Shown here piece after piece: positions 9,925-58,392 of a stretch of DNA of 64,000 bases. A model generated the notes under the pieces. That model saw only the letters and a list, made by a program, of their open reading frames with translations, did not search any database and was not told the origin of the DNA. This DNA is from a bacterium (GTDB lineage: Bacteria > UBA8248): contig OZ241875.1 in NCBI GenBank assembly GCA_965203325.1, positions 1,530,212-1,594,211 of the forward strand. The letters are read 5' to 3'. Position 1 is the stretch's first letter. Each line of letters opens with the position of its first letter. The translations under genes were made by a program, and so were the position numbers.

Positions 9925-11915
<1,991 letters not shown>

Positions 11916-12061: not shown

Positions 12062-13120
12062 ATGACGCTGAGAATGGGTGTGTGGGCGCCCGTGTGGGGC
12101 ACGTTTCTGGGGCGGGTCGAAAAACCCGAGACAGTGAAAGAGGCCTCATTCGCGCACAATGCGCGCTATATCCAGCGCGCCGAGGAGTTGGGATTCGAGA
12201 GCACCCTGTTGCTCGACAGGAGCCTCAACAGCATCAAGGGCGTGGGCGCGCCGGTTCTCGAAGCCTGGATAACGGCGGCGGCGCTGGCACCCATTACGAA
12301 GAAAATCGAACTCATCATCGCCGCCAAGAGCGCCTACCGCCACCCTTCGCTCGTCGCCCAGATGGGGGCGAACATCGACTGCATCAGCGGGGGGCGCTTC
12401 GCCATCAACATCGTCTCGGGCTGGTGGGCGCTGGAAAACGAGATGGCGGGCATCCCCTTCCCGCCGCACGATGAGCGCTACGATCTATCCGAAGAGGTCA
12501 TGCACATCCTCAAATCCTACTGGACGAAGGAGCGCTTCAGCTTCAAGGGCAGGTATTTCCAGATAACAGACGGCGTCACCGCGCCCAAACCCGTCCGAAA
12601 GCCCTGGCCCACGTTTTATTTCGGGGGCGAATCCACCGCCGCCGTGAAGCTGGCGGGCAAGGCGGCGGACGTTTTCCTGTTCAACGGCCGTTCGCTCGCG
12701 GACGCGAAGGAGTTGATGGCCGCCGTGAACCAGGAAGCGGAAGCAAACGACAGATCCATCCGCCACGGGATGAGCTCGTTCATCGTCTGCCGCGACACAG
12801 ACGAGGAGGCCCGGGCGGAACTCGATCGCCTTTTCTCGCTCATCACCGAACCGCCCAAGCTGAAGAGAGTCGACAGGGCCGCCCAGCACAGGAAAACGAG
12901 CGGGAAGGCCGGCGGCGTCGGCTCGAACGGCGGCACGGCGACGGGCCTCGTCGGCTCGCCTGAGACCATCGCCGAGCGCATCATGGCGTTTCACGAGGCG
13001 GGCGTGGAGTTGTTCCTGCTCCAGTTCCATCCCATGTTCGAGGAGATGGAGCGCTTCGCCTCGGAGGTCATGCCGCTTCTGCCCCTGGGCGAGAAAGCGC
13101 CCGAGGCGGCGAGAGCCTAG
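12062..13120 (+). CDS. LLM-class (luciferase-like) flavin/F420-dependent oxidoreductase
   Basis: MTLRMGVWAP... TIM-barrel LLM signature. RBS GGGAG 6 nt upstream. ORF track start 12017 trimmed. Confidence 0.8.
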   Translation: MTLRMGVWAPVWGTFLGRVEKPETVKEASFAHNARYIQRAEELGFESTLLLDRSLNSIKGVGAPVLEAWITAAALAPITKKIELIIAAKSAYRHPSLVAQMGANIDCISGGRFAINIVSGWWALENEMAGIPFPPHDERYDLSEEVMHILKSYWTKERFSFKGRYFQITDGVTAPKPVRKPWPTFYFGGESTAAVKLAGKAADVFLFNGRSLADAKELMAAVNQEAEANDRSIRHGMSSFIVCRDTDEEARAELDRLFSLITEPPKLKRVDRAAQHRKTSGKAGGVGSNGGTATGLVGSPETIAERIMAFHEAGVELFLLQFHPMFEEMERFASEVMPLLPLGEKAPEAARA

Positions 13121-14568: not shown

Positions 14569-15393
14569 ATGAGCCGCTGGATACAGGAACTCACCTGGCC
14601 GGACGTGGAGGAATACCTGAAGCGCGGGGATACGGCGCTCGTCCCCGTCGGCGCCACGGAGCAGCACGGGCCGCACTGCCCCATCGGAACGGACGCGGCC
14701 GAGGCCATCGCGACCGCAGAGGAAGTGGCGGAGCGTGCGGACGCGCTGGTCGCCGCTCCCCTGTGGTTCGGCTGGTCGCCCCATCACCTCGCGTTCCCGG
14801 GGACGATATCGCTCGCCGCGGAGACGCTGACGCGCGTCGTCGAGGACGTATGCAACAGCCTCGTGGTCCACGGCTTCCGGCACATCGTGATCCTGAACGG
14901 GCACCGGGTCGCGAACCTCCCGCCGCTCGAGATTGCGATCGTAAGGGTCAGGAACGTAACGGGCGCGGCCATAGCCATCGTGGACCTGGCCCTCATCGCC
15001 GGCAAGGAGATTCGCGACGTATGCGAGAGCCCCCCGGGCGGCGTCGGCCACGGGTGCGAATCCGAGACCTCCTTCATGCTGTATAAATACGGCGAGCAGG
15101 TGAAGATGGAGCGCGCGGTGGACGCCGTCCCCGAGGTGGGCGAATTCGAGCACCGCTTCGTGTCCGTGGACCACGCCGTCAACCGGGTCGAGAACCCGAA
15201 GCTCTCCTTTCCGCCGACGACCGAGGAATACGGGCGGAACCGCGAAGCGATGGGAGTGGGCGGCGCGGCGACCTTCGCATCGGCGGAGAAGGGGGAGAAA
15301 ATCTTCGAGGCCATCGCCGCGAACACGACGAGATTCGTAAAGACCTTCCAGAACGTACCCGTCACCATCAAGGCGACCGCCCCGCCCTTATAA
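14569..15393 (+). CDS. creatininase family amidohydrolase
   Basis: GATEQHGPHCPIGTD signature. RBS GAGGAGA. Confidence 0.85.
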   Translation: MSRWIQELTWPDVEEYLKRGDTALVPVGATEQHGPHCPIGTDAAEAIATAEEVAERADALVAAPLWFGWSPHHLAFPGTISLAAETLTRVVEDVCNSLVVHGFRHIVILNGHRVANLPPLEIAIVRVRNVTGAAIAIVDLALIAGKEIRDVCESPPGGVGHGCESETSFMLYKYGEQVKMERAVDAVPEVGEFEHRFVSVDHAVNRVENPKLSFPPTTEEYGRNREAMGVGGAATFASAEKGEKIFEAIAANTTRFVKTFQNVPVTIKATAPPL

Positions 15394-15480
15394 GAGAAGA
15401 GGCGGGTGGCAGGGCCGGGTCGCGGCCTCGGACAGGCGCGGGGGGCCTGTCCGCTACGAAACCACTGCGTTTGGGTGCGC

Positions 15481-15735
15481 TCTCCCCTTGAGGGTATTTG
15501 CCTACCTAGAGCGAGGAAATCAACTCCCCCCTTGAGGGGGAGTCGAGGAAGCCGAGCGTTTTTTGCGAAGGCTGACTCGGTGGGGGGACATGCCACAGAT
15601 AAAACTCCCCCCACCGAATCGCTTGCGGGCATTCGCCCTTAGCTCTTCGACTCCCCCTCAAGGGGGGAGTTGATCTTGCTCGTTCATCGGGGTTTTTTAC
15701 CCCCCTGACAAGGGGGGGTAGGGGGGGTTGGTTTT
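15481..15735. repeat. composite GC-homopolymer palindromic element, copy A
   Basis: Hairpins ACTCCCCCCTTGAGGGGGAGT and CGGTGGGGGG...CCCCCCACCG, then the family arm TACCCCCCTGACAAGGGGGGGTAGGGGGGGTT. Duplicated at 17221-17490. Confidence 0.7.
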
Positions 15736-15933
15736 CCGGCCAATCGGACAACCACGGGGGAGGGTTGTCCCTACGCCCCGCGGCGTATCGAGACGACCCG
15801 TAGGGGCGCTTCGTGAAGCGCCCGTTTCTCCGGCAAGGACCGTTCACGAATGTGGGCGGTTCGCGAACCGCCCCTACGGTGGGTGCGGCGTTTGTCCGTC
15901 ATTCCGACCAGGGATGATTTTTTCAACAATCCC

Positions 15934-16347
15934 CTACTCCCCCGCCCGGTCTCCCCTCGCCTTCTTCGCCCTCATCAGAAACGCGCCCAGGGCGGGCAGG
16001 AGCGCGATGGCGCCCACCATGTTGACGAGGAACATGAACGAGAGCACCGTGCCCATGTCGGCCTGGAGCTTGAGCGGCGCGAATATCCAAGTCGCCACCC
16101 CCACCGCCAGAGTGAGGCCGGTGAGCACCACGCCCGCCCCCATGGTGGCGAGGGTGCGTTCGTAGGCGGCGGCGAAATCGAGTCCCTCCCTCATATAGGC
16201 GAGAAGCCGCCCGCAGATGTATATCCCGTAATCCACGCCGATGCCGACCCCCAGGGCCACCACGGGAAGCGTCGAGACCTTGAGGCCGATCTCCAGAAAC
16301 GCCATCAGGGCGCAGGCCAGGGTGGTGAATTTCTTTCCGGCTTGCAT
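15934..16347 (-). pseudogene. orphan 3'-terminal fragment (137 codons) of the RND/MMPL transporter gene
   Basis: About 95% identical to the last ~130 codons of the full gene at 17685..20033. Part of an ~0.8-kb segmental duplication. Confidence 0.7.
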
Positions 16348-16427
16348 TTGTTCTCTTTGAATTGTTCTTGATTTTTGGACCCCAATCAGACATATTGTTA
16401 TTATTTATTTTAATATAAGGACATCAA

Positions 16428-17033
16428 ATGAACCCGCAACTGATTGCACAACCCGAAGATATCTTCCGCAAAAACGGCGGCCAGCTTCGAATGAGCGAGG
16501 CTCTCGCCGGCGGGATGACGCGCTACACCCTGTATGCGCTCAGGGACAGGGGCGTCGTCGAGCAGATCACCAGGGGCGTTTATCGGCTTCGGGAACTGCC
16601 CCCGCTCGGCAATCCGGACCTGGTGACGGTGAGCCTTCGCTTTCCCAGGGCCGTCGTTTGCCTTGTCTCTGCACTTGCCTGGCACGAGATCACGACCCAG
16701 ATACCACGTGAAGTCTCCGTGGCGGTGCCGAAAGACTCTCGGACGCCGGTGCTCGACTATCCCCCCCTCAAGGCGCACAAATTCTCCCACGAAGCATACG
16801 AACCCGGCATCGAAGTACACCTGCTCGATGGAGCACCCGTCAAGATATACAACCCGGAAAAAACCCTGGCCGACAGCTTCAAGTTCCGCAACAAGATCGG
16901 CATGGACGTGGTGCTTGAGGCGCTGAAACTCCACAAGGAGCGAAACGGGATCAACCTCGGCGAACTTATCAAGTACGCAAAGATTTGCCGGGTCGAAAAC
17001 GTGATGCGGCCTTACCTGGAGATGCTCGTATGA
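16428..17033 (+). CDS. AbiEi-family antitoxin (type IV TA system transcriptional regulator)
   Basis: N-terminal wHTH ...LRDRGVVEQITRGVYRL typical of AbiEi_4. Followed by the start of an AbiEii-like ORF. Confidence 0.6.
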   Translation: MNPQLIAQPEDIFRKNGGQLRMSEALAGGMTRYTLYALRDRGVVEQITRGVYRLRELPPLGNPDLVTVSLRFPRAVVCLVSALAWHEITTQIPREVSVAVPKDSRTPVLDYPPLKAHKFSHEAYEPGIEVHLLDGAPVKIYNPEKTLADSFKFRNKIGMDVVLEALKLHKERNGINLGELIKYAKICRVENVMRPYLEMLV

Positions 17034-17112
17034 CGCCTCCGAGAAACGTATCCGCCTCCGTGCAGCAACGCCTCCTGAACCAGGCCAGGAGCGAAGGACG
17101 CCTCTTCGGATG
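17029..17112 (+). pseudogene. truncated AbiEii (DUF1814 nucleotidyltransferase toxin) remnant, ~28 codons
   Basis: MTPPRNVSASVQQRLLNQARSEGRLFG* matches the conserved AbiEii N-terminus. Start overlaps the AbiEi stop (ATGA). The rest of the gene is absent. Confidence 0.5.
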
Positions 17113-17220
17113 AGCCGATCCCTGCAAACTGGGCCGCGTCCGGCCCATGGAACTGATCTGGATTTTCTTCACATTTTTCTCATATTGAGGCTGTCCTTGA
17201 GATCGCAGCCGTAGGGACAA

Positions 17221-17490
17221 CCCCTTGTCAGGGGGGTAGGTGGGGTACTCCCTCCACCGAGGAGAATCCTAAATTCACTCCCCCCTTTTTTGAGGGGGAG
17301 TCGATGAGGCCGAGCCTTGGCGAAGGCCGATTCGGTGGGGGGACATGCCACAGAAAAACTCCCCCCACCGGTTCGGTTTCGGGCAAAAACCCCCTCACCT
17401 CACCGACTCCCCCTCAAGGGGGGAGTTGATCTTGCTCGTCCATCGGAGTTTTCATACCCCCCTGACAAGGGGGGGTAGGGGGGGTTGGTT
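17221..17490. repeat. composite GC-homopolymer palindromic element, copy B
   Basis: Left arm CCCCTTGTCAGGGGGG, internal hairpins, right arm CCCCCCTGACAAGGGGGGGTAGGGGGGGTT. Paralogous to 15481-15735. Confidence 0.7.
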
Positions 17491-17684
17491 TTCCGGCCAA
17501 TCGGACAACCACGGGCGCCTGTCCCTACGCCCCGCGTATCGAGACGACCCGTAGGGGCGCTTCGTGAAGCGCCCGTTTCTCCGGCAAGGGCCGTTCACGA
17601 ATGGGGGCGGTTCGCGAACCGCCCCTACGGTGGGTGCGGCGTTTGTCCGTCATTCCGAGCAGGGATGATTTTTTCAACAATCCC

Positions 17685-20033
17685 CTACTCCCCCGCCCGC
17701 TCTCCCCTCGCCTTCTTCGCCCTCATCAGAAACGCGCCCAGGGCGGGCAGGAGCGCGATGGCGCCGACCATGTTGACGAGGAACATGAACGAGAGCACCG
17801 TGCCCATGTCGGCCTGGAGTTTGAGGGGCGCGAATATCCAGGTCGCCACCCCCACCGCCAGAGTGAGGCCGGTGAGCACCACGCCCGCCCCCGTGGTGGC
17901 GAGCGTCCGCTCATAAGCCGCCGCGAAATCGAGACCCTCTCTCATATAGGCGAGTAGCCGCCCGCAGATGTATATCCCGTAATCCACGCCGATGCCGACG
18001 CCTAAGGCCACGACGGGAAGCGTCGAGACCTTGAGGCCGATCTCCAGAAACGCCATGAGGGCGTAGGCGAGGAGCGAGACGAGCGCGAGGGGCGCGATGA
18101 TGCAGACGGTCGCCGCCAACGAGCGGAAAGACAGCAGGCAGAGCAGGATGACCGCGGCGTAGACGTAGCCCAAGATCGGGAACTGCGACGCCTCTATCTC
18201 CTCGTTCGTCGCCGCCATCACCCCGACGTTCCCCGAGGCGAGGCGAAAGGTGGTGCGTTCATCGCGCTCCGCCAGGCTGAAGGCCTTGACGGCCGAGACG
18301 ACCCGGCGGATGGTCTCCGCCTTGTGGTCGGCGGTGTAGATGCGCACCGGCATCGCCGAGCAGTCGCCGTTCAGGAGCCCCGTGCTCGTCGGCACGAGGG
18401 AGACCGACTCGGCGAGCGCGTGGCGGTTGCGCGGCAGCGCGCGCCACTTGAGGCTGCCCTCGTTCCAGCCCGCGTTCAGCTTGCGGACGATGCCGGGGAG
18501 CGCGACCACCGAGCGCACGCCCTCCACGTTCCGCATGCGCCACTCGAACTCGTCGATGAGGCGCATCACGCGGTAATCGACGCACCCCTGGGGTATGGTC
18601 TCGACGATCACGGTCAACACGTCCACGCCGATGTTGAAGCGCTCGACGATGGCGGCGGTATCGCGGTTGTAGGTGGAAGTCGCGCGCAACTCCGGCACGC
18701 CCTGGTGCTGGTCGCCCACGCGGACCTCGGGCGCATAGCGCGCGCCGAGAGCGAGCAGGACGGCGGCGACGGCTATCGTCGCGATGGCGGGGCGCGGCCT
18801 GGCCGCCCGCGCGGCGCGCTTCCAGAGACCCGCCAAGAGTCCCGGTGAGGCCGCGCGCCCCCCGCCCTCCCCCGGCTTGAGGAAGGAAAGCGCCACCGGC
18901 AGTAATCCTAAGTTCGTCAGGATGATCGCGGCCACGCCCAGGCTGGCGGTGACGGCGATCTCTTGGATGACGCGCACGGGGATGAGCGCGATGGCCACGA
19001 AGCCGATGGCGTCCGAGGCCAGCGCCACCGAACCCGGCAGCAGCAGGCGGCGGAAACTCGCCCGCGCGGCGCGGACGCCGCCGCCCCCTTCGGCCCCCAC
19101 CGCGTTCACCATCTGCACCCCGTGGCTCACCCCGATGGCGAAGACCAGAAACGGCACCAGGATCGACATCGGGTCGACGCCGAAACCCAGGCCCGTGAGC
19201 GCGCCGAGCTGCCAGACGACCGCGACGAGCGAGCACGCCAGGGGCATCGCCGTGAGGCGGACCGAGCGGGTGTAGGCGTACACGAAAAGGGCGGTGATCA
19301 CGACGGCGAGGCCGAAGAACAGGAGCACCTGCGCCGCGCCGTCCGCTATCTCTCCCACGACCTTGGCGAACCCGATGATGTGGACGTTCGCGACGCCGCC
19401 GGCTTCTGCGTCGCGGCGGATGACCTCGAGCGCGCGCGCGACTTCGAGATAATCGAGCCGCTCCCCGGTGTCCGGGTGGAACTCCTGGAGCCTCGCGCTC
19501 ACGAGCGCGCCCGAGAAGTCGTTCGCCACCAGCCGTCCCACGATGCCCGCCTTGATGATGTTCTCGCGCACTCGCGCGAGGCCGGCCCTGGTGGGCTTGA
19601 AGTCCGCGGGCAGCACGTTGCCCGCGACGATGCCGTCCTCGACCACCTCGTTGTAGCGCACGTTCGGCGTGACCACCGAATAGACCTGGGTGCGGTCGAC
19701 GCCCGGCAGGAAGAATACGGCGTCGTTCACCTTCTGGAGCAGGGCGAAGAACTCCGGGCTGAAGATGTCGCCCTTCCGCGCGACGAGCGCCACCGCCACG
19801 CGGTCCGCGCCCCCGAAAGCGGCGCGGTGCTTGAGGAAGGTGCGCATGTACTCGTGTTCGAGCGGAATCAGCTTGGTGAAGCCCGCGTCGACGCGCAGCC
19901 CCGACGCCAGCCAGGCCATCGCCAGCGTGACCAGGAGGAACGCCGCGAGCACCCGCTTGCGGCGCGAGAACAGCGCGCGCTCGAGCCAAGCCGTCACCGA
20001 GGATGTCTTGGGAGAAGCGGAGGCGTCCGGCAT
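17685..20033 (-). CDS. RND superfamily / MMPL-type exporter (HpnN-like)
   Basis: 12-TM RND topology with two large periplasmic loops. Start taken at MPDASASPK (ATG 20033); the ORF-track start 20102 is GTG and would overlap the upstream gene. Confidence 0.8.
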   Translation of the reverse strand: MPDASASPKTSSVTAWLERALFSRRKRVLAAFLLVTLAMAWLASGLRVDAGFTKLIPLEHEYMRTFLKHRAAFGGADRVAVALVARKGDIFSPEFFALLQKVNDAVFFLPGVDRTQVYSVVTPNVRYNEVVEDGIVAGNVLPADFKPTRAGLARVRENIIKAGIVGRLVANDFSGALVSARLQEFHPDTGERLDYLEVARALEVIRRDAEAGGVANVHIIGFAKVVGEIADGAAQVLLFFGLAVVITALFVYAYTRSVRLTAMPLACSLVAVVWQLGALTGLGFGVDPMSILVPFLVFAIGVSHGVQMVNAVGAEGGGGVRAARASFRRLLLPGSVALASDAIGFVAIALIPVRVIQEIAVTASLGVAAIILTNLGLLPVALSFLKPGEGGGRAASPGLLAGLWKRAARAARPRPAIATIAVAAVLLALGARYAPEVRVGDQHQGVPELRATSTYNRDTAAIVERFNIGVDVLTVIVETIPQGCVDYRVMRLIDEFEWRMRNVEGVRSVVALPGIVRKLNAGWNEGSLKWRALPRNRHALAESVSLVPTSTGLLNGDCSAMPVRIYTADHKAETIRRVVSAVKAFSLAERDERTTFRLASGNVGVMAATNEEIEASQFPILGYVYAAVILLCLLSFRSLAATVCIIAPLALVSLLAYALMAFLEIGLKVSTLPVVALGVGIGVDYGIYICGRLLAYMREGLDFAAAYERTLATTGAGVVLTGLTLAVGVATWIFAPLKLQADMGTVLSFMFLVNMVGAIALLPALGAFLMRAKKARGERAGE

Positions 20034-20043
20034 GGGAATGCGC

Positions 20044-21018
20044 CTATCGGGCCCCGGGCAGGCGTTTGACCCCGAACTCGCCGAGCAGCAGCACCCGCCC
20101 ACCGGAAAGCGCGAGCGCTTTCGAGATTCCCAGGCGGGAGGTCAGGGGTTTGAACTTCGGATCGGTCGATACGCTGCGCCCGCCGTCGCGGCTGACGAGC
20201 AGTGCGCCCTCGAGGCCGGTGACGAGCAACAGACCCGGCTTCACGAGGAGCGCTCCGGTGAGGGTCGCTTTCGTCCGCGTGCGAACGCGCGTCCAGCTCT
20301 CGCCCCCGTCGTCCGAGCGATACATGCTGCCCCGCAAGCCGAACAGCAGCAGCCTGTCCGCATCGAGCGCGAGCGCACCGAACCACGAACCCGCATAGGG
20401 CGAGGGGAGCTTGCGCCAGGTGGAGCCGCCGTCGTCGCTTCGGTAGATAGCCCCCGCTTCCCCAGCGATGAACAGCCGACCGGCGCCTGCGGGAACGATG
20501 GCGTTCAGGTGGAAATCGTCCCTGTCGATGGTGCGCGGCTTCCAGGTGCGGCCGCCGTCCGAGGTGGCGAGGAAATAGCCGTACGCCCCCACGGCGAAGC
20601 CGTTTCGCTCATCGCGGAACCAGACGTCGAGCAGGGGGCGTTCTTCTTTAGGGGCGTAATGGGCCACGCTCCATGTCGCGCCGCCGTCTTCGGTGCGCAG
20701 GATGAGCGCGTCGTGCCCGACCGCCCAGCCGAGGCGCGCATCGCGCATGTGCACGGCGGTCAGCAAGGCGCGGACGGGAACCCGAGCCTGCTTCCACTTC
20801 AAGCCGCCGTCGTCTGAGACCAGCACGTGGCCGCGCTCGCCCACCACCACCAGGCGCGGGCCTGCGGACGCTCCGCCAATCAGCAGGGATTCGGGCGCGA
20901 GACGGGCCTGAACGGCCGGTTCGGCGTTCGCCGCGCCAATGGGCAGCAGACAGACGATGAGGGCGGGCAGGAGGCGTCGCCGCCGTTTTCTCAAAACCCC
21001 GAAGGTCGCCGCTATCAT
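20044..21018 (-). CDS. Ycf48-like BNR/Asp-box beta-propeller protein (secreted)
   Basis: Signal peptide MIAATFGVLRKRRRRLLPALIVCLLPIGAANA. Repeated S/TxDGGxTW motifs. Start ATG overlaps the DUF1329 stop (ATGA). The N-terminal 400 codons of the long ORF are antisense read-through. Confidence 0.75.
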   Translation of the reverse strand: MIAATFGVLRKRRRRLLPALIVCLLPIGAANAEPAVQARLAPESLLIGGASAGPRLVVVGERGHVLVSDDGGLKWKQARVPVRALLTAVHMRDARLGWAVGHDALILRTEDGGATWSVAHYAPKEERPLLDVWFRDERNGFAVGAYGYFLATSDGGRTWKPRTIDRDDFHLNAIVPAGAGRLFIAGEAGAIYRSDDGGSTWRKLPSPYAGSWFGALALDADRLLLFGLRGSMYRSDDGGESWTRVRTRTKATLTGALLVKPGLLLVTGLEGALLVSRDGGRSVSTDPKFKPLTSRLGISKALALSGGRVLLLGEFGVKRLPGAR

Positions 21019-22373
21019 CTCCTGCCCATGCGGCGCAGCGCCGAAGGCGTGAAACCTCTGGACGAGTAGTTCGAGCCGAAGACGTTCATGGGATACTCGT
21101 TGTTGAGCCCCAGCGCGAGGTAGCGCCCCGCCTGAATATCGGTGTGCACCTCGAGGGTAAAGCCCAGCAAGGGTTTTTCGTAATAGTTGACGGAGTGCCC
21201 CTCGGATACGCGCCAGAGCTGATCCCGGTTGTCGTAAATGTCGGAGAGCAGGATCATCCACGAGTCCTCGTCCACGTAGAACACCCGTTTCTTGTAGATG
21301 TGGCGCGCCCCTTCCTTGAGCGTCGCCTCGACCACCCAGACCCGGTGCAGCTCGTAGCGCAGATATTTCGGATTGACGTGCAGCGGCTTCAGAACGTCGG
21401 CGAAGGTGATCTTGTCGCTGTGCAGCTTGTAGCTGTTGTAGGGCACGTACATCTCGCGCTTGCCGAGTAGCTTCCAGTCGTAGCGGTCGAGCGCCCCGTT
21501 GAACATGTCGAACTGATCGCTCGTCCTGAGCCCGTCCGCGGCGGTGCCCGGATTGTCGTAGGCGATGTTCGGCGCGCGGCGCACCCGCCGCTGGCCGGGG
21601 TTGTACACCCAGGCGTGGCGCGGCTCGGCGACCTGGTTGAGCGTCTCGTAGGCCAGCAGGATCCTTCCCGCCAGACGCGCCGGCGCCGCCACCTTCTGCC
21701 GGAAGAGGATCATCCGGTTGTCGAGTTTCGCCTCCGTCATGCCCGGCAGGGAATAGCGCGCGAGGTATGCGTCCTCGAGCCGGACGAGGGTGTAATCGCC
21801 CCCCCTGGTGACGGCGGCCTGGCCGATGACGCGCGAGGCGGCCTCGCCCCGGTAGCGCAGCAGGTGATTCCAGATCACCTCTGCTCCGTTTTTGGGAACC
21901 GGAAACGGAATCCCGATCACAGCACCCGTCACGCCGCTGCCGCCCTCGGCGAGTTTCGCGGTGGCGGCGACGCGCCTGGTGGCGTCGTAGATGCGCTTCG
22001 GAAACGCGGCGCTGCGCCGGGTCGGGTAGACCGGCAGCCGGAGCGTCGGGTAAAGCTCCACCATCTTCTGGAGCCCGGCCGAGAGCTTCCCCCGATATTT
22101 GTCGAGGTTCGCGCGGGTGATGGTGAAGAGCGGCTTGTCGCCCGGATAAGGGTCGGGATGGTGGTCGCCCACCTTGTAGCCGGCCGGCGGGGTCGTGATG
22201 CCGCCCTTCCACTCCGGGATGGAGCCTTCGGCGTTGCCCCCCCGCTCCGCGCCGAGGGGGGTCAGGTCCTTCCCGAGCCGGGCGATCTCGTCGGCGGAAA
22301 CCGCGGCGGAGGCATTGGTCGCGATGAAGGTGAAAAGCATCGCGACGCTGATTCTCAAGATGATGGTTTTCAT
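21015..22373 (-). CDS. DUF1329 family lipoprotein (AupB-like)
   Basis: Signal peptide MKTIILRISVAMLFTFIATNASA and a DUF1329-like core. Confidence 0.75.
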   Translation of the reverse strand: MKTIILRISVAMLFTFIATNASAAVSADEIARLGKDLTPLGAERGGNAEGSIPEWKGGITTPPAGYKVGDHHPDPYPGDKPLFTITRANLDKYRGKLSAGLQKMVELYPTLRLPVYPTRRSAAFPKRIYDATRRVAATAKLAEGGSGVTGAVIGIPFPVPKNGAEVIWNHLLRYRGEAASRVIGQAAVTRGGDYTLVRLEDAYLARYSLPGMTEAKLDNRMILFRQKVAAPARLAGRILLAYETLNQVAEPRHAWVYNPGQRRVRRAPNIAYDNPGTAADGLRTSDQFDMFNGALDRYDWKLLGKREMYVPYNSYKLHSDKITFADVLKPLHVNPKYLRYELHRVWVVEATLKEGARHIYKKRVFYVDEDSWMILLSDIYDNRDQLWRVSEGHSVNYYEKPLLGFTLEVHTDIQAGRYLALGLNNEYPMNVFGSNYSSRGFTPSALRRMGRR

Positions 22374-22402
22374 GGCGGTTACCCCATTTTCATCGCTGTT
22401 GG

Positions 22403-24598
22403 TCAGAACAGGTATTTGACGGTGGCGGAGACGAAGTCGCGGTCGTTCGCCTGGTTGTGCCTGCCGGCGCCGCCGAACATGGTGAAGCTCACGTCGAAAT
22501 GCCAGCGGTTGAGATAGCTCGCGCCCAGCCCGAGGGTCACGGCGGTCCGGTCTTCTATGAACGGCCCGCCCGGACCGGGGCTGGTGCCCTTCACGTCGTG
22601 CTGGAACGACACGCGCGGCGCGACGTTCACCGCGCCGATGGCGTTGAGATACGACAGCCGCGCCGCCAGCCGATAGCCGTAGGAGGTGGCGCTCGCGAAC
22701 CGATCCAGCGGATCCGCCGGGAGGCCGGCGTGCGCGCCCGTCGGCGTGGAATGAAAGGGCTCCCCGCTGGTCTGCGTGCCCGGCCCCTCGAGGCGAAGCT
22801 CGCTCTTGTCCGGCATGTCGTGCACGTACATGAGCGCCGCCTCCGCGACGAACGCCAGGCTGTCCGCCCCCAGGGTGGGGCCGAACACCTTGGTGGCCGT
22901 GGCCTGGATCTGGCTCACGTCGCGCTCGATGTAGCCCTGGACATAGCTTTCGGGGGCAAAGACGCCGACCTGGTTCCGGCAGTAGGGGAAATCATTCGAG
23001 CAAGGCCTGTTGGTTGTGGGGTCGATGGTGAGCGGCGTCAGGGCCGCGAAGAACACTTCGGCGTCGTCTATCTGCAGGGGCGCGTCCATGCGGTAGGAGA
23101 GTTCTCCCTGCAGCGCCCATCCCGAGGTTCCGAGCACGGTGTTGAAGCTCAGGCCGAAGAGCTGGATGTCTTCGGGATATTCGGCGAAGTAGCTTGCCGT
23201 CTTCGTGTAGCGGTCAATGGCGAGGAGGCCGGCCATCCTGCTCACGTTGCTGGTGACCTGCTTGGCGACCTCGCCGGGGACTATGGCGGCGACTTGCCTT
23301 CGAACCTCCGCCTGAATGATCGCCGGCGGCGTGCCGGGCGGAACTTGCGCCGTAACCGCAGCGGTGACCTGCCGGGTGACCGCCTGTGTTACCAGCGGGG
23401 TGACCGCCTGCGTCACCGCCCGTGCGGTCGTGGAAGTGGGCGAACCGACCGCCGCCGCCGCGAAGAGGCCGTCCTGTATCCCCTGCACGGTGCCGGTGCG
23501 CCCGCTCAGGACGGGCAGGCGGCTGTGGTAGTTGACGAAGTAGACGCCGAACTCGGTGTTGTTGAGACCCTCGGCGAGGTAGCGCAGCGCGACCCCCCAC
23601 TGGCCGGAGTCTTCGGGTTCGTTGTCCGCATTGCGGAACACGTTCAGGAAATGGGGGTCGAAGGCCGCCTGCGCTCTCTGGGGCAGGGGCGTCAGGACGC
23701 CCGGCGCCGCGGGGCTGGGGATGCGGAAACCACGGAGGTCGGCGTTGATCGCCTGGGTCAGGCCGGGCCCCAACGCCTCGTAACTGAATCCCGTGTCGGG
23801 GATGGCCCCCCAGCCGAGCACGACCCTCCTCCCGCCCGCGCCGACGAAGTCGCTCGTCGAGAAGAAGCTGCCGGGCGGGTCGATCTCGGTCTTCTCCCAC
23901 TTCACCTGGTAGAAACCCTCCACGGAGAGGCTCTCGTGCAGTGAAGCCGAGACGGAGACCATCGGGACCGGCACGAGCCCGTCGCGCAACTCCGCGCCCG
24001 GCGTTCTCAGTTTGGTCACGTCGAAGGGGTTGATGACGTTGATGCTGTTCTGGATGAAGGTGCTCTCGCCCCAGCTGAGCACGTGATTGCCGAGCCGAAG
24101 GTCGATCGGCGCGCCGCCCAGATCGAACGAGCCGGTGAGGTAGAGATCGAGCACTTCGAAATCGTTTCCGACCAGATCCTTCGCTTCCGGCGATAGTTCG
24201 TCCCGCGCCCTGTCGCCGTTTTCGTTCTCGAAGTCGAAAAAGCCGTGCACGCGGGCGAAGGCGCCGAAGTTCCGGTAGTTGAGGTCGAGCTCGCCGATGA
24301 ACTTCGAAGCGTTGCTCACGACGCCTCTGTCGAAGTTGAGGTTGCCGTCGTCGCTGTTGACGGAGGTCGCCGTGCCTCCGTTGGCGATGCCGAGCAGGTT
24401 CTCGTCGCGCTCCCCGACGCGAAGGGTGACGCCGTGCGAGAGCGTGATGTCGAGGCTGCCTTCGAGTTCGCCGTGGGTGAAATCCTCCGCGCCCGCGGGC
24501 GCAGATGAGAAGGCGAAGACAAGGGCCAACGCGCAGGCCGCAAAACGAAGCGAGCGGGAGATGGATTCGAAATCGCCCCCTCGGGAGAGGCTGTTCAT
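22403..24598 (-). CDS. DUF1302 family outer-membrane beta-barrel protein (AupA-like)
   Basis: Signal peptide. C-terminal ...ATVKYLF ending in Phe. DUF1302-like length. Contains an internal (QAVT)n low-complexity insert. Confidence 0.75.
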   Translation of the reverse strand: MNSLSRGGDFESISRSLRFAACALALVFAFSSAPAGAEDFTHGELEGSLDITLSHGVTLRVGERDENLLGIANGGTATSVNSDDGNLNFDRGVVSNASKFIGELDLNYRNFGAFARVHGFFDFENENGDRARDELSPEAKDLVGNDFEVLDLYLTGSFDLGGAPIDLRLGNHVLSWGESTFIQNSINVINPFDVTKLRTPGAELRDGLVPVPMVSVSASLHESLSVEGFYQVKWEKTEIDPPGSFFSTSDFVGAGGRRVVLGWGAIPDTGFSYEALGPGLTQAINADLRGFRIPSPAAPGVLTPLPQRAQAAFDPHFLNVFRNADNEPEDSGQWGVALRYLAEGLNNTEFGVYFVNYHSRLPVLSGRTGTVQGIQDGLFAAAAVGSPTSTTARAVTQAVTPLVTQAVTRQVTAAVTAQVPPGTPPAIIQAEVRRQVAAIVPGEVAKQVTSNVSRMAGLLAIDRYTKTASYFAEYPEDIQLFGLSFNTVLGTSGWALQGELSYRMDAPLQIDDAEVFFAALTPLTIDPTTNRPCSNDFPYCRNQVGVFAPESYVQGYIERDVSQIQATATKVFGPTLGADSLAFVAEAALMYVHDMPDKSELRLEGPGTQTSGEPFHSTPTGAHAGLPADPLDRFASATSYGYRLAARLSYLNAIGAVNVAPRVSFQHDVKGTSPGPGGPFIEDRTAVTLGLGASYLNRWHFDVSFTMFGGAGRHNQANDRDFVSATVKYLF

Positions 24599-24915
24599 TG
24601 GTCGCCCGGCGCGGGTGCGGCGGGTGAAGTGGCTGGAGCGGGCTGGTTGCATGCCAGTGGGTCCCCCCTCGTTGCAGACAAGGTAATTTATTTCCTGGAA
24701 GTTCTCTTATCTTGTTTTGATGTGCGCTTCTGCAAGATATAGTTATCGCCTTGAGCTAGTCAAGAGAAATTCGAGCGCAACAAACCAGAAAATGGCGTTT
24801 TACGGATTGATTCCAGGATAGCGGTACGAACGAAGTGCTTCGGCGCTCCTGCACCATGGATCACGCCGATCGCGAGTGACCCGATACTTTTCGTGCCGGC
24901 TCTTTTGAGGAAGTG

Positions 24916-25989
24916 CTAACGTACGCGCGTTCCGTCGGGTTCGAAGAGGTAGACGCGCTCGGAGTCGAAGGTGACGTTCAACCGCTCGCCTTCCTTGAAG
25001 CGATCGCTCGCCTCGATGATCGCGATGGTCGGACGCTCGGCGCCGTGCTCGAAGTAGAGCAGCGTGTCCTTGCCGAGGGGCTCGACGAGCTGAATGTCGC
25101 ACGAGAAGGCGGCATCCTGGCTTCCCACCACGATGTGCTCGGGCCGCACGCCCAGGGTGTAGTCCCCCGGAGATACGCCCGCGTAGGCGTCGGGGAGTCT
25201 GAATTCAATTCCGGCGCCCGTGAAGGCGGTGGCGCCGTTCGATCCCTCCACCTTCCCCGCGATGAGGTTCATGGAGGGGCTGCCGAAGAAATCGGCCACG
25301 AAGTAGCTGACCGGGTCGTTGTAGATTTCCAGCGGAGTGCCCACCTGCTCGATGACGCCGTCGCGCATCACCACGATGCGGTCGGCCAGCGTCATGGCCT
25401 CCTCCTGATCGTGCGTGACGTAGACGAAGGTTTTCTTGAGTTCCTCGTGCAGCCTGTCGATCTCGGCGCGCATCTCACGCCTGAGCTTGGCGTCGAGGCT
25501 CGAGAGCGGCTCGTCCAGCAGAAAAGCGGCCGGGTCGGTGATGAGGGTGCGGGCCAGTGCGGCGCGCTGCGCCTCGCCGCCCGAGCATTCGACGGGCAGC
25601 TTGTGGAGAAGGTGTGTGATGCGCACCATGTCGGCCACCTCCCGCACCTGCTGTTTGCGCGTTTCCTCCGGCACCTTCTTCATCCGTGGGCCGAACTCGA
25701 TGTTCTCGGCCACCGTCTTGTGCGGGAACAGGGCGTGCGTCTGGAAGACCATGCCGACGCCGCGGTCTCCGGGGTCGACGTCGTTCACGAGCCGCCCGTC
25801 GATCTCGATCTCACCCGCAGTGGGCTCCTCGAAACCCGCGATCATGCGCAGCGTGGTCGTCTTCCCGCATCCCGAAGGGCCGACGATGACGACGAACTCG
25901 CCTTCCTCGATGGTGAAGTCGAGGTTCTTCACGGCCTCGATGTTCCTGCCGAATACCTTGCGTAAGCCCTTGAGTTCGATTCTCGCCAT
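24916..25989 (-). CDS. ABC transporter ATP-binding protein (MalK/UgpC type)
   Basis: Walker A GPSGCGKTT, signature SGGEAQR, Walker B FLLDEP. C-terminal TOBE/MalK regulatory domain. Confidence 0.9.
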   Translation of the reverse strand: MARIELKGLRKVFGRNIEAVKNLDFTIEEGEFVVIVGPSGCGKTTTLRMIAGFEEPTAGEIEIDGRLVNDVDPGDRGVGMVFQTHALFPHKTVAENIEFGPRMKKVPEETRKQQVREVADMVRITHLLHKLPVECSGGEAQRAALARTLITDPAAFLLDEPLSSLDAKLRREMRAEIDRLHEELKKTFVYVTHDQEEAMTLADRIVVMRDGVIEQVGTPLEIYNDPVSYFVADFFGSPSMNLIAGKVEGSNGATAFTGAGIEFRLPDAYAGVSPGDYTLGVRPEHIVVGSQDAAFSCDIQLVEPLGKDTLLYFEHGAERPTIAIIEASDRFKEGERLNVTFDSERVYLFEPDGTRVR

Positions 25990-25996
25990 TGTCCTT

Positions 25997-26899
25997 TTAC
26001 CTCTTCACCATTCCGAAAGTGAAACCTCGCACCAGGTGTTTTCGAATAAAAATGCCGATGACCATGAGCGGCAGCGTGATTCCCACCGCCAGAGCGGCCT
26101 GGTGGCCGTAGACGCGGCCCTCGTCGGAGCCTTCGTATTTCGCCAACTGGACGGGCAGCGTCACCACGTCCACCTTCGACAGCATGAGAGAGAGCAGATA
26201 TTCGCTCCACGTCAGGATGAGGATAAACAGGAACGTCGCCACGATGCCGGAGCGTATGAGCGGGAATATCACCTCGCGGATCGCCTGCCACTTGGTCGCG
26301 CCCAGAATCTCGGCGGCCTGTTCGATCTCGACGGGAACCTCGTCCACGAAGCTCTTCGTCATCCAGACGGAATACGGCAGTGTGGTGATGAAATAGACGA
26401 TAATCAGCCCCAGCGCCGTGTCCATCAGATGGATCGCCGAATAGTAGAGCGTCAGCGGCGCCGCCACCACGATGGGCGGAATCATCCTGAGCACAAGGAG
26501 CTGGAACATCCGTATCTCCGATAATATCCGGTACCGCGAGACCCCATAGGCCAGAATGGCTCCGAATGCGACCGAAAGCGCCGTGGCGGTGATGGCGATG
26601 TAGAGGCTGTTCCAGAGCGCCTGCCAGGGCTTGTTCGCCGAAGCCGACTCGTAGCGGGCCGTCTGTGTTTTCTCTTCGGTGGCGGTGCGGGGACTTTCGG
26701 GCCTGCCCCACACGGCCTGGTAATTGACCCAGGAGGCCTCCTTCGACCAGTAGACCGGCGGCCAGGCGTGCCATTCCCAGTCGGGCTTGAACGAGGTGGA
26801 AACTATCCAGAAAATCGGGAACGCCACGATCACCGACCATATGAAAAGCATGGCGTAGCGGAAGATGGTGAACAGGCGCGCCTTCTGTACTCGGTTCAT
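25997..26899 (-). CDS. carbohydrate ABC transporter permease (MalG/UgpE type)
   Basis: EAA-loop motif. Six TM helices. Confidence 0.85.
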   Translation of the reverse strand: MNRVQKARLFTIFRYAMLFIWSVIVAFPIFWIVSTSFKPDWEWHAWPPVYWSKEASWVNYQAVWGRPESPRTATEEKTQTARYESASANKPWQALWNSLYIAITATALSVAFGAILAYGVSRYRILSEIRMFQLLVLRMIPPIVVAAPLTLYYSAIHLMDTALGLIIVYFITTLPYSVWMTKSFVDEVPVEIEQAAEILGATKWQAIREVIFPLIRSGIVATFLFILILTWSEYLLSLMLSKVDVVTLPVQLAKYEGSDEGRVYGHQAALAVGITLPLMVIGIFIRKHLVRGFTFGMVKR

Positions 26900-26901
26900 G
26901 T

Positions 26902-27864
26902 CTAGGCCTCCGTGCGCGACGTTTCATGCAGGGCGTCGAGCGCCCGCTTCTCGCGGCGCAGCACGTAGATCGCCGTGAGAACGATGAATATCATGAGCAC
27001 CATGACTACGTAGGACATCGCCGCGCCCTTCGATATGTCGAACGACACCCAGGTCGTGAAATAGAGATAGATGGGTATCGTCTCTGTAGCGGTGCCGGGC
27101 CCTCCCTGGATTAGGCCCCACGTTTTGGGAAATTCCGCCATGGCCTCCAGGAAGCGCAGGATGAGCGCCAGGAATATGACGGGCCTTAAAAGCGGAAGCT
27201 GGATCTCGCGGAATATCTGCAGGCGGTTCGCCCCCAGAATACGCGCAGCCTCCACCGGTTCGGTCGGCAGCGAGGAGAGGCCGGCCAGCATGATGATGAA
27301 GACGAAAGGCGTCCAGTTCCATATTTCGAGCAATATAATCGTGAAGATGGCGAAATTGGGATTCGACAGCCAGGTGAACTTCGAGAGGTCCCCCGGCAGG
27401 AAATAACTCAAAAACCCGTTGATGGGCCCTTTCTCGTACAAGAGCATGTCGGCGGTGTAGGCTATCACCACGGGCACCGTCAGCATCGGGAGGATGAAGA
27501 GAATGTAGAAAAACGCCTGTCCCCGGAAGGGCTTGTACATCAACAGCGCCAGAATGAAGCCGCATATGAAACAACCCAGCGTCGAGAGACCCGCGAACAT
27601 GAGCGAGCGCCCCATGGCTCTCCAGAAACGACCTTCGGTCAACACCTCCTGGAACAACTCCAGCCCCACGAACTCCGCGTCGAACCACGTGGAGAGATAA
27701 ACCGTCCAGGAATGGAACGAAAAATATATCTGCAAGAGAAAGACGGGTATCAGGAACGCGAACAGGAGAATCAGCGGAGAGAGCACGCTCCATTTGAATA
27801 TGCGCACGCCCCGGGCGCGCGTAGAGCGTCTACCCTTGGGTTGCGCAATTGTGGCCGTCGCCAT
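26902..27864 (-). CDS. carbohydrate ABC transporter permease (MalF/UgpA type)
   Basis: EAARILGANRLQIFREIQLP EAA motif. Confidence 0.85.
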   Translation of the reverse strand: MATATIAQPKGRRSTRARGVRIFKWSVLSPLILLFAFLIPVFLLQIYFSFHSWTVYLSTWFDAEFVGLELFQEVLTEGRFWRAMGRSLMFAGLSTLGCFICGFILALLMYKPFRGQAFFYILFILPMLTVPVVIAYTADMLLYEKGPINGFLSYFLPGDLSKFTWLSNPNFAIFTIILLEIWNWTPFVFIIMLAGLSSLPTEPVEAARILGANRLQIFREIQLPLLRPVIFLALILRFLEAMAEFPKTWGLIQGGPGTATETIPIYLYFTTWVSFDISKGAAMSYVVMVLMIFIVLTAIYVLRREKRALDALHETSRTEA

Positions 27865-28028
27865 TCAACAAGACTCCTGCGGTATCGAATGAATCGGAGC
27901 GTACGCCGGAAACCATTCGGAAGCGATAATCGCGTCGGCAGCCGGGGCGGGCGATTCCCCGCCCGCCCCAACCGGCGAAACATGAAACCTCCGCCCCGGA
28001 GCCGCGCCCCGGGGAGAGAAGGTTCGTC

Positions 28029-41908: not shown

Positions 41909-42023
41909 CACCCCCCCCCTACCCCCCCTTGTCAGGGGGGCAAGAAAAAGCAAAACCCCCTCGGCCCGGCGGGGGCGCATCGCCTTTTTATACCCCCCTG
42001 ACAAGGGGGGTAGGGGGGGGTGG
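41909..42023. repeat. dual-arm GC-homopolymer palindromic element (inverted orientation)
   Basis: CACCCCCCCCCTACCCCCCCTTGTCAGGGGGG ... TACCCCCCTGACAAGGGGGGTAGGGGGGGG with a central CCCCC/GGGGG hairpin. Confidence 0.75.
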
Positions 42024-47423: not shown

Positions 47424-47538
47424 CAACCCCCCCCTACCCCCCCTTGTCAGGGGGGTATGAAAAGGCGACGGCCGCCACCGGTAGAGGGGCATTTGTTTTT
47501 TCTTGCCCCCCTGACAAGGGGGGGTAGGGGGGGTTGCC
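47424..47538. repeat. dual-arm GC-homopolymer palindromic element
   Basis: ACCCCCCCCCTACCCCCCCTTGTCAGGGGGG ... CCCCCCTGACAAGGGGGGGTAGGGGGGGTTGCC. Downstream module with TTTTTCAACAA to ~47590. Confidence 0.75.
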
Positions 47539-58276: not shown

Positions 58277-58392
58277 AACCCCCCCTACCCCCCCTTGTCA
58301 GGGGGGTATAAAAAGGCGATGCACCTCCACCGGGCTGAGGGAGGTTTGCTTTTTCTTGCCCCCCTGACAAGGGGGGGTAGGGGGGGTTGCCT
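58277..58392. repeat. dual-arm GC-homopolymer palindromic element
   Basis: AACCCCCCCTACCCCCCCTTGTCAGGGGGG ... CCCCCCTGACAAGGGGGGGTAGGGGGGGTTGCC. Central CCTCC/GGAGG hairpin. Downstream module to ~58435. Confidence 0.75.

What the first reader, a model, noticed from the sequence alone, without database searches (positions are those of the whole stretch)
15527..18075. 0.8-kb segmental duplication copying the 3' end of the RND gene plus its downstream repeat-rich intergenic, bracketing an AbiE cassette
Region 15527-16330 is about 95% identical to 17277-18075. Both copies contain the composite palindromic element and the last ~130 codons of the RND/MMPL gene. Differences are small, e.g. ATMGAG versus ATTGAG and GDRAGE versus GERAGE. 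The upstream copy is a dead-end 137-codon fragment at 15934..16347.

Between the copies lies a ~950-bp unique segment, lower in GC with an AT-rich promoter, carrying an AbiEi antitoxin gene and only the first 28 codons of the AbiEii toxin. This is the footprint of an insertion or deletion mediated by the direct repeats, or of a duplicative capture of a TA module. The 0.8-kb direct repeats remain a substrate for further recombination.
Basis: seen in the sequence. Interest (0 to 1): 0.6.

Follow-up and report, generated by a model that had tools for sequence, protein, structure and literature searches.

The report
Old insertion-duplication around a decaying AbiE cassette
A small toxin-antitoxin (AbiE) defence cassette sits behind a membrane-transporter gene between two 0.8-kb copies of that gene's tail; the arrangement is real, shared by several related species, and the toxin was recently deleted here, so it is well-documented but ordinary genome plasticity.

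Summary
The duplication is real. Copy A (15527-16326) and copy B (17277-18077) are 90% identical overall: 93% in the 393-nt coding part, about 98% in the centre, and 78-88% in the palindromic end. They bracket 950 bp holding an intact abiEi and a broken abiEii.

It is not a local or recent accident. The same cassette, with the same cassette|RND-fragment junction, occurs behind the orthologous RND gene in at least five other assemblies (L003, L009, L081, L085, L093).

Within each genome the fragment matches that genome's own RND gene (98-100% in L003 and L009). Between genomes the copies are about 90% identical. A single origin combined with this pattern indicates concerted evolution by gene conversion or recombination.

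The fragment is a pseudogene. Its start codon is not conserved, and it is deleted in L081 and truncated in L085. Most A/B differences are synonymous polymorphisms also seen in functional alleles elsewhere.

The toxin gene lost 776 bp internally, out of frame, at an 8-nt microhomology. A contig from another sample, 99.6% identical, still carries abiEii intact past the breakpoint (≥202 codons, to the contig end). L009 and L085 lost the toxin independently.

Sister lineages lack the cassette, which fits scarless pop-out between the repeats. How the structure first arose remains inferred.

The parts
17685..20102 (-). Full-length MMPL/RND transporter gene. The longest ORF is 805 aa from a GTG; the likely ATG start at 20033 gives 782 aa. 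It is the last gene of a DUF1302-DUF1329-BNR-MMPL cluster.
   Evidence: Pfam MMPL 4.4e-21. Orthologues at 90-97% aa identity in L001-L014. Gene order in L081 and L085.
17277..18077 (-). Repeat copy B. It comprises the last ~130 codons of the functional RND gene (17685-18077) and 408 bp of downstream REP/MITE-rich spacer (17277-17684).
15527..16326 (-). Repeat copy A. It comprises the RND 3' pseudogene fragment (15934-16326) and its copy of the spacer (15527-15933).
15934..16347 (-). 137-codon ORF formed by about 7-13 linker codons (MQAGKKFTTLAC) fused to the RND C-terminus. It is treated as a pseudogene: the ATGCAA frame hits TGA after 11 codons in L003 and L009.
16327..16427 (.). Non-RND linker (16327-16347) plus the AT-rich divergent promoter/operator region of abiEi. 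It contains the conserved AATAAATAATAACAATATGTCT. A sigma-70-like site lies at 16376-16404 on the + strand and a weaker one at 16427-16400 on the - strand.
16428..17033 (+). abiEi, intact at 201 aa. It is 100% identical to a protein from another sample (P0001).
   Evidence: Pfam AbiEi_4 1.4e-9. PADLOC AbiEi 6.9e-72..
17030..17113 (+). abiEii N-terminal remnant of 27 codons plus a stop. Its ATG overlaps the abiEi stop (ATGA).
   Evidence: tblastn against L003 AbiEii residues 1-42, 83%..
17112..17215 (+). abiEii C-terminal remnant (17112-17156, EPIPANWAASGPWN*, out of frame) followed by about 59 bp of cassette 3' flank. The deletion junction lies at 17102-17110.
   Evidence: blastn against L003 8109-8161 and L081 1845-1958
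15519..15674 (.). Palindromic MITE/REP-like element at the outer end of copy A, with 31-nt inverted arms that each contain the CTCCCCCTCAAGGGGGGAG hairpin. The counterpart in copy B is at about 17277-17430.
14569..15393 (+). Creatininase-family gene. It is the conserved flank on the far side of the variable slot.
   Evidence: Pfam PF02633 8.2e-65. Synteny.

Best explanation
This is an inherited insertion-duplication in a variable accessory slot just downstream of an MMPL/RND transporter gene.

Once, in an ancestor of these lineages, an abiEi-abiEii cassette became fixed between two direct copies of the RND 3' end plus downstream spacer. Alternatively the arrangement arose once and later spread between lineages by flank homology.

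Copy B completes the working gene. Copy A is a promoter-proximal pseudogene fragment.

Since then three processes have acted.
1. Gene conversion or recombination between A and B repeatedly homogenises them. Each genome's fragment therefore tracks its own RND gene and even its lineage-specific spacer. Allelic recombination with other lineages adds synonymous variants. In the window, the left 170 nt of A keeps the native, L001-like allele, while the left part of B carries a foreign allele.
2. While the toxin is intact, the addictive toxin-antitoxin pair plausibly protects the cassette from pop-out between the repeats. This step is inferred.
3. The toxin is repeatedly inactivated by small deletions. 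In the window this is a recent 776-bp microhomology deletion. After that the orphan abiEi and the repeats are free to be lost without a scar, which gives the cassette-free sister genomes.

The founding event is inferred, not shown. The favoured route is homology-anchored insertion: one end homologous in the RND gene, and the other joined illegitimately at the linker|CTGATGGCG junction. An equivalent route is insertion at a tandem-duplication junction.
For: Duplication and anatomy.

Same junction in the window, L003 and L009, with a shared non-RND linker. Remnants of the same linker are present in L081 and L085. L093 reproduces the A|abiEi junction at 99.56% identity.

Concerted evolution:
- A/B identity within genomes is 100% (L009), 98% (L003) and 94% (window), against about 90% between genomes. 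A and B of L003 and of L009 pair up in the NJ tree.
- The repeats include lineage-specific spacer and differ in length: about 430-490 bp in L009, 800 bp in the window, and 1.06-1.13 kb in L003.
- The 61-nt remnant in L085 is 98% identical to its own gene.

Pseudogene status:
- The start frame is interrupted in L003 and L009.
- The fragment is deleted in L081 and truncated in L085.
- Only 2 of 20 A/B differences are unique to A, and one of those is nonsynonymous. 16 are synonymous polymorphisms shared with functional genes.

Allele pattern: A-left is 98.8% identical to L001, while B-left is 91.8% to L001 and 94.7% to L081. Identity between the window and L001 is mosaic, 79-100% per 200 nt.

Toxin loss:
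- abiEii is intact in L003 (PF08843, 1.6e-47) and in L081, and is intact to the end of the contig in L093.
- The breakpoints in the window, L009 and L085 all differ.

Patchy distribution: each cassette-bearing genome is sister to a cassette-free one, namely (WIN,L001), (L081,L002) and (L009,L008).

AbiE systems are addictive, stabilising toxin-antitoxin modules (PMC3985639 abstract).
Against: - The founding mechanism leaves no diagnostic trace here.
- A simple Campbell integration of a popped-out circle predicts native B-left and foreign A-left. The window shows the opposite.
- Vertical descent requires at least five or six independent losses. Spread of the cassette by homologous recombination between lineages would give the same picture and cannot be separated from losses with these data.
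- abiEi divergence (window-L081 94.7%; window-L003/L009/L085 86-87.5%) only roughly tracks host divergence (93%; 89-91%).
- Stabilisation by toxin-antitoxin addiction is inferred, not tested.
- No read-level data for the window itself confirm the copy-B|cassette junction (17216-17300).
Confidence: 0.7

Rival explanations
1. Remnant of a site-specific integrative element of the e14/phage 21-icd type. The element integrated inside the RND 3' end and brought its own replacement 3' end (copy B), displacing the native end (copy A). The integrase and most cargo were later lost.
For: - The architecture fits: an intact gene, then cargo, then a displaced 3' fragment in the same orientation.
- The fragment junction is identical in all carriers.
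- In the window, A-left is the native allele and B-left is foreign.
- L017, an unrelated Gammaproteobacteria MAG, has a 6-kb RM + GmrSD/NsnA + HEPN island bracketed by a 207-nt duplication of the same gene's 3' end.
Against: - No integrase or recombinase domain was found in the Pfam-scanned ORFs of the L003 and L017 inserts, and the 950-bp window insert holds only abiEi and the abiEii remnants.
- The repeats run 400-700 bp beyond the stop codon into lineage-specific spacer and vary from 0.2 to 1.1 kb in length.
- B copies are as divergent between hosts as the hosts themselves, so they are not a conserved element-borne sequence.
- The L017 junction lies at a different codon (aa 47 against aa 7).
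Confidence: 0.12
2. Repeated horizontal acquisition rather than vertical descent with losses. The cassette with its flanking RND homology moves between related lineages by homologous recombination, so cassette-free sisters never had it.
For: - The distribution is patchy, with every carrier sister to a non-carrier.
- Identity between the window and L001 is strongly mosaic, showing frequent recombination.
- B-left and abiEi of the window are closer to L081 than the upstream RND gene is.
- The same abiE cassette (82-86% nt) sits in unrelated contexts in L083, L084, L086 and L087.
Against: - Cassette divergence between carriers is as deep as host divergence (86-90%), so no recent sweep has occurred.
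- A double crossover that brings in the linker should also bring a donor-type A-left, but A-left is native in the window.
- This rival is not exclusive of the best explanation.
Confidence: 0.25
3. The 137-aa fragment is a functional small membrane protein kept by purifying selection.
For: - dN/dS between A and B is about 0.05, from 20 synonymous and 3 nonsynonymous nucleotide changes.
- The ORF has an ATG start.
- A promoter-like site on the - strand faces it.
Against: - The start frame is closed by TGA in L003 and L009.
- The fragment is deleted in L081 and cut to about 61-75 nt in L085.
- The synonymous differences are imported polymorphisms of functional alleles.
- Changes unique to A are about half nonsynonymous or more (M, plus C and D outside the 339-nt segment).
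Confidence: 0.04
4. Assembly artefact: a collapsed or misjoined repeat, or a chimera of two strains.
For: - Short-read contigs break at or within this cassette: L093 at 1428 nt, L082 at 1376 nt, and L081 starts 394 nt upstream of abiEi.
- The two copies carry different alleles.
Against: - The same architecture is present in independent assemblies, including contigs of 248 kb (L085) and 1.48 Mb (L009).
- L093 confirms the A|abiEi junction at 99.56%.
- The copies differ by indels and are each joined to unique sequence.
Confidence: 0.03

Closest known systems
AbiE type IV toxin-antitoxin / abortive-infection system (Dy et al. 2014, PMC3985639)
   Same: - It is a bicistronic abiEi-abiEii operon with overlapping genes (ATGA at 17030-17033).
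- AbiEi carries the N-terminal AbiEi_4 wHTH domain, and an AT-rich promoter lies upstream.
- Relatives carry the DUF1814 nucleotidyltransferase toxin (L003 PF08843, 1.6e-47).
- AbiE is known to stabilise the DNA that carries it.
   Different: In the window the toxin is destroyed (27 + 14 codons left), so only an orphan antitoxin/regulator remains. No function has been tested.
Prophage e14 / phage 21 integration in E. coli icd. The integration site is cited from PMC12803456; the detail that the element supplies a replacement icd 3' end with mostly synonymous differences is from my own knowledge.
   Same: The target gene stays intact. A displaced 3' fragment of the same gene lies at the far end of the inserted DNA, and differences between the two ends are mainly synonymous.
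   Different: - No integrase is present.
- The repeats are 0.4-1.1 kb and run far into non-coding spacer.
- The repeats are homogenised within each genome.
- The cargo is a 1.7-kb toxin-antitoxin cassette, not a prophage.
Homology-facilitated illegitimate recombination and transformation-induced merodiploidy (PMC3240628; Johnston et al. 2013, PMC3784515)
   Same: Foreign DNA is anchored by one homologous arm, and the process can leave an intact plus a partial copy of the target gene flanking the insert. The result is a direct-repeat structure that is unstable by recombination.
   Different: Those are laboratory events in competent bacteria, with duplications of 100-900 kb or small insertions. 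Here the event is ancient, 0.8 kb in size, and known only from sequence.
Concerted evolution of duplicated bacterial genes by gene conversion (for example tufA/tufB and rRNA operons; from my own knowledge)
   Same: Paralogous copies within a genome are more alike than orthologous copies between species.
   Different: One partner here is a non-functional fragment, and the converted tract includes non-coding spacer.

Membership tests
AbiE type IV TA system | AbiEi antitoxin with an N-terminal winged-HTH (AbiEi_4) domain and a C-terminal domain | tested here: met
   PF13338 1.4e-9. Full-length match to PADLOC AbiEi models, 6.9e-72, residues 11-200.
AbiE type IV TA system | Cognate AbiEii (DUF1814) nucleotidyltransferase toxin encoded immediately downstream | tested here: not met
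   The window keeps only 27 N-terminal and 14 C-terminal codons, with 776 bp missing. The toxin is intact in L003 (PF08843, 1.6e-47) and L081, and is intact to the contig end in L093. The window locus is therefore a degraded AbiE system.
AbiE type IV TA system | Bicistronic operon, autoregulated through inverted repeats in the promoter | tested here: inconclusive
   The stop/start overlap ATGA is visible. A sigma-70-like site lies at 16376-16404. A conserved AT-rich block is shared by all carriers. No clear pair of inverted repeats was defined, and binding cannot be tested.
AbiE type IV TA system | Toxicity, neutralisation and phage resistance | not testable with these tools
   These require experiments.
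Site-specific integrative element that replaces a gene's 3' end (e14/phage 21-icd type) | Direct repeats made of the target gene's 3' end flank the insert, and the gene stays intact | tested here: met
Site-specific integrative element that replaces a gene's 3' end (e14/phage 21-icd type) | The element encodes an integrase or recombinase next to an att site | tested here: not met
   The 950-bp insert holds only abiEi and the abiEii remnants. The Pfam-scanned ORFs of the L003 and L017 inserts show no recombinase domain.
Site-specific integrative element that replaces a gene's 3' end (e14/phage 21-icd type) | Repeats are confined to a fixed att segment that is the same in all hosts | tested here: not met
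   The left end is fixed, but the right end and the length vary from 0.43 to 1.13 kb and include lineage-specific spacer.
Campbell-type (single-crossover) insertion-duplication | Direct repeats of host sequence bracket the insert | tested here: met
Campbell-type (single-crossover) insertion-duplication | Reciprocal chimeras: the gene-attached copy is recipient-left/donor-right and the distal copy is donor-left/recipient-right | tested here: not met
   In the window the distal copy A is native on its left (98.8% to L001), while the gene-attached copy B is foreign on its left (91.8%). Later conversion could have erased the original pattern.
Concerted evolution by gene conversion | Single origin of the duplicate, yet paralogues within a genome are more similar than the same copy between genomes | tested here: met
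   Shared junction. Identity matrix and tree. L085 remnant.
MITE/REP-type palindromic element (the 'composite palindromic element') | Terminal inverted repeats, a strong hairpin, and multiple copies in the genome | tested here: inconclusive
   The arms are 31 nt and 97% complementary, and the fold has z = -10.9. The 19-mer core occurs only 3 times in the window, all at this locus. Related copies exist at the same slot in L001, L005, L007 and L009. A different REP (CCCCCCTGACAAGGGGGGGTAGG) has 8 copies across the window.

The most novel reading that the evidence does not exclude
The 3' end of this conserved RND gene may serve as an integrase-independent docking site for defence and toxin-antitoxin cargo across distant bacteria of the same habitat. 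Cargo would arrive with, or create, a duplicate of the gene tail. The duplicate would be kept recombination-competent by gene conversion. Addictive cargo such as AbiE would hold the unstable duplication in place until its toxin decays. The window, L003, L009, L081 and L085 (AbiE) and L017 (RM + GmrSD/NsnA + HEPN, with a different junction) would be instances of one general mechanism.
Probability: 0.15. Interest if true: 0.6.

Novelty: new member of a known kind. Interest (0 to 1): 0.35.

Why it matters
- It is a clean natural example of an insertion-duplication persisting through speciation, with a pseudogene fragment kept in step with its parent gene by conversion.
- It shows the same toxin being lost at least three separate times while its antitoxin/regulator survives.
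- It warns annotators that a low dN/dS between a fragment and its parent gene can come from imported alleles rather than from selection on the fragment.
- It marks a variable accessory slot behind a conserved transporter operon. If the L017 parallel reflects a common mechanism, this would be a recombinase-free way of loading defence genes next to a core gene.

Tried and rejected
- Exact-sequence look-ups of the window's RND protein (805 aa and 782 aa) and of the 137-aa fragment found nothing.
- The single metagenome scan, using the conserved operator pattern ARTAWTAACAATATGTCTKAT, returned 10 contigs. None has any similarity to window 15300-18300, so they are chance AT-rich hits.
- blastn of the complete L003 cassette against plasmids gave only distant abiEii matches (67-74% over 8-15% of the query). 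Against phages it gave nothing.
- Rfam on 13-21 kb gave only a sub-threshold miRNA-model hit on the palindrome, which is meaningless.
- I tested whether the linker codons derive from a diverged RND homologue. All 50+ homologues have PLA.VSLLAYA at that position, so the linker is not RND sequence.
- I considered that the BPD_transp_2 fragment next to abiEi in L084 might be an analogous 3' duplication. It is the 5' part of a degraded permease with no repeat elsewhere in the locus, so it is not analogous.
- I first read the low dN/dS as evidence that the fragment had a xenologous origin or is under selection. Polarising the differences showed they are shared polymorphisms.

Full report
**1. Observation**

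The repeat finder, a pairwise alignment and a global alignment confirm two direct copies: A at 15527-16326 and B at 17277-18077. Identity is 90.4% counting gaps. It is 93.1% in the 393 coding nucleotides, 96-100% in the central ~300 nt, and 78-90% in the outer palindromic part.

Pfam identifies the local genes:
- 17685-20102(-) is an MMPL/RND transporter.
- 15934-16347(-) is a C-terminal MMPL fragment.
- 16428-17033(+) is AbiEi.
- 14569-15393(+) is a creatininase-family gene.

The 950-bp unique segment has lower GC. Each copy ends in a palindromic element with 31-nt inverted arms. The A element folds at -59.9 kcal/mol, z = -10.9.

**2. The toxin remnant**

The L003 relative has a 300-aa AbiEii (PF08843, 1.6e-47). 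Against it, the window keeps residues up to ...RLFG (17030-17113, ending in an in-frame stop). It also keeps the last 14 codons out of frame (17112-17156, EPIPANWAASGPWN*).

The missing 776 bp lie between CTCTTCGG and CTCTTCAG, which marks a microhomology deletion.

Contig L093 comes from another sample. It is 99.56% identical to window 16208-17109 and then runs on into an intact abiEii of at least 202 codons. The deletion is therefore a recent, strain-level event.

L093 also confirms the copy-A|linker|abiEi junction independently.

**3. The arrangement is shared**

A genome scan with the RND protein followed by blastn gave MAGs about 4-13% diverged in nucleotide sequence. Several are labelled Nitrospinota. 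From memory of the isolate names, many are sponge-associated; the tool outputs do not state this.

Structure in the carriers:
- L003: RND - repeat B - intact abiEii - abiEi - RND fragment - repeat spacer - creatininase.
- L009: the same order, with abiEii cut after about 15 codons.
- L081 (abiEi 94% aa): the toxin is intact, but the coding fragment was lost at a GCCG microhomology, leaving 9 nt of linker. It has no spacer B, so no repeats remain.
- L085 (abiEi 85% aa): 61-75 nt of fragment remain, a PIN-FitA toxin-antitoxin pair is inserted next to it, and abiEii is cut after about 22 codons.

The junction between the abiEi promoter, a non-RND linker (ATGCAAxCCGGAAA...TCACCACC) and the RND sequence beginning at CTGATGGCG is the same in the window, L003 and L009. 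The linker is not RND-derived. The fragment and cassette were therefore joined once.

**4. Concerted evolution**

In a 339-nt codon-aligned segment, A and B are 100% identical in L009, 98% in L003 and 94% in the window. Any copy compared between genomes is about 90% identical, and the A/B pairs of L003 and L009 cluster together.

The repeats include each lineage's own spacer and differ in length:
- L009: 429 bp at 99.8%, plus a REP element.
- Window: 800 bp.
- L003: about 1.06-1.13 kb, with a tandem-repeat copy-number difference between the copies.

The L085 remnant is 98% identical to its own gene and 84% to the window's.

A single junction origin combined with within-genome similarity means repeated homogenisation by gene conversion or recombination.

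**5. Why the differences look 'selected'**

A and B differ at 20 synonymous and 3 nonsynonymous nucleotides, giving dN/dS of about 0.05. I polarised the 20 differences in the 339-nt segment against 15 functional orthologues:
- 2 are unique to A, one of them the M/T replacement.
- 2 are unique to B.
- 16 are synonymous variants that also segregate among functional genes.

The C/Y and D/E replacements lie outside that segment. In the five-sequence alignment with L001, L002 and L004 they are seen only in copy A.

The left 170 nt of A are 98.8% identical to L001, the sister genome, and share rare variants with it. The left 170 nt of B are 91.8% identical to L001 and 94.7% to L081. The right halves of A and B are 97.6% identical to each other.

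Identity between the window and L001 is mosaic, 79-100% per 200 nt. Allelic recombination is therefore common in this group.

The low dN/dS reflects two different alleles of a functional gene, not selection on the fragment.

The fragment's ATG frame is closed by TGA in L003 and L009, and the fragment is dispensable in L081 and L085. I therefore call it a pseudogene.

**6. Distribution and loss**

A tree of 4 kb of RND/BNR sequence outside the repeat gives (WIN,L001), (L081,L002), (L038,L003), L085, (L004,(L005,L006)), (L014,L007) and (L011,(L009,L008)).

Carriers are WIN, L081, L003, L085 and L009. L001, L002, L004, L005, L007, L008 and L010-L014 have no cassette and no scar.

Recombination between the direct repeats would delete the cassette exactly. 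This makes several independent losses plausible. Spread of the cassette between lineages by flank homology cannot be excluded.

The toxin has been destroyed at three different breakpoints, in the window, L009 and L085.

AbiE modules are known to stabilise the DNA that carries them (PMC3985639). I infer that an intact toxin protects the duplication from pop-out, and that this protection has now been lost in the window.

**7. Origin**

The founding mechanism is not shown by the data.
- A popped-out circle reintegrating by a single crossover predicts the opposite allele pattern to the one seen.
- The e14/phage 21-icd type of integration fits the architecture and the allele pattern. However, no recombinase is present, the repeats run far into variable spacer, and B copies are not conserved between hosts.
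- I favour a homology-anchored insertion with one illegitimate joint (compare PMC3240628 and PMC3784515), or insertion at a tandem-duplication junction, at moderate confidence.

**8. Wider context**

The slot behind the RND gene is variable:
- L014 carries MNT-type nucleotidyltransferase, DUF1828 and Fic genes.
- L085 carries PIN-FitA.
- L001 carries a 900-aa protein of unknown function.

L017 is a Gammaproteobacteria MAG whose RND protein is 73% identical. It carries a 6-kb island with a type II methyltransferase/restriction fusion, a GmrSD/NsnA-like protein and a RiboL-PSP HEPN protein. The island is bracketed by a 207-nt, 96% duplication of the RND 3' end, at a different junction.

This parallel is the basis of the more novel reading. 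It rests on one example.

**9. Verdict**

The feature is real and now well explained in outline. It is an old insertion-duplication around an AbiE cassette, maintained by conversion and now decaying. It is a new member of known kinds of event, and its interest is moderate to low.

Noticed in passing
L017:12185-18656: A Gammaproteobacteria MAG carries a 6-kb defence island directly after the homologous RND gene. The island holds a type II MTase/REase fusion, a GmrSD/NsnA-like protein and a RiboL-PSP HEPN protein. It is bracketed by a 207-nt, 96% duplication of the RND 3' end (12185-12391 against 18450-18656). No recombinase was found.
   Followed up: partly
L085:4047-4735: In another relative a PIN-FitA (VapBC-like) toxin-antitoxin pair is inserted next to the orphan abiEi. 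It truncates the RND fragment to about 61-75 nt.
   Followed up: partly
L087-L092 (e.g. L087:5001-5606): An abiEi 83% identical to the window's occurs as an orphan, with no abiEii, in a different context. It lies beside an IS4-type DDE transposase in L087/L088 and next to the trp operon, and is on record in 22 contigs. Antitoxin-only AbiE loci appear common in this community.
   Followed up: no
L086:1201-6505: A related abiEi-abiEii pair lies beside a CBASS-like set of genes (a DncV-like NTase and a SAVED-2TM effector), forming a defence island.
   Followed up: no
window 41918-42015, 47433-47528, 58284-58381 (also 15700-15722, 17457-17479): The REP-like motif CCCCCCTGACAAGGGGGGGTAGG occurs 8 times in the window (0 expected). 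At three of the sites it forms inverted pairs about 75 nt apart, indicating a genome-wide palindromic repeat family.
   Followed up: partly
L003:7441-7623 and 10358-10636: 21-nt tandem repeats (GGCCATGGACTCCTCGTGCTT-like) lie inside a small ORF in the duplicated spacer. The copy number differs between the two repeat copies.
   Followed up: no
L029:12688-13102: An Alphaproteobacteria MAG has an older, decayed RND 3' fragment (71-74% nt identity to its own gene) directly after the RND gene. It overlaps the start of a long ORF whose C-terminal part matches cytochrome P450.
   Followed up: no
window 17685-28100 vs L001: Nucleotide identity to the closest genome swings between 79% and 100% per 200 nt. 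This is a strong mosaic, pointing to frequent homologous recombination between these lineages.
   Followed up: partly
L009:13000-13581: A 193-aa ORF with no Pfam or PADLOC match occupies the place of the deleted abiEii in L009.
   Followed up: no
window 20044-24652 and L081/L085: The RND gene is the last gene of a conserved DUF1302 - DUF1329 - BNR/YCF48-like - MMPL cluster. This cluster is shared by all relatives fetched that have enough flank.
   Followed up: no
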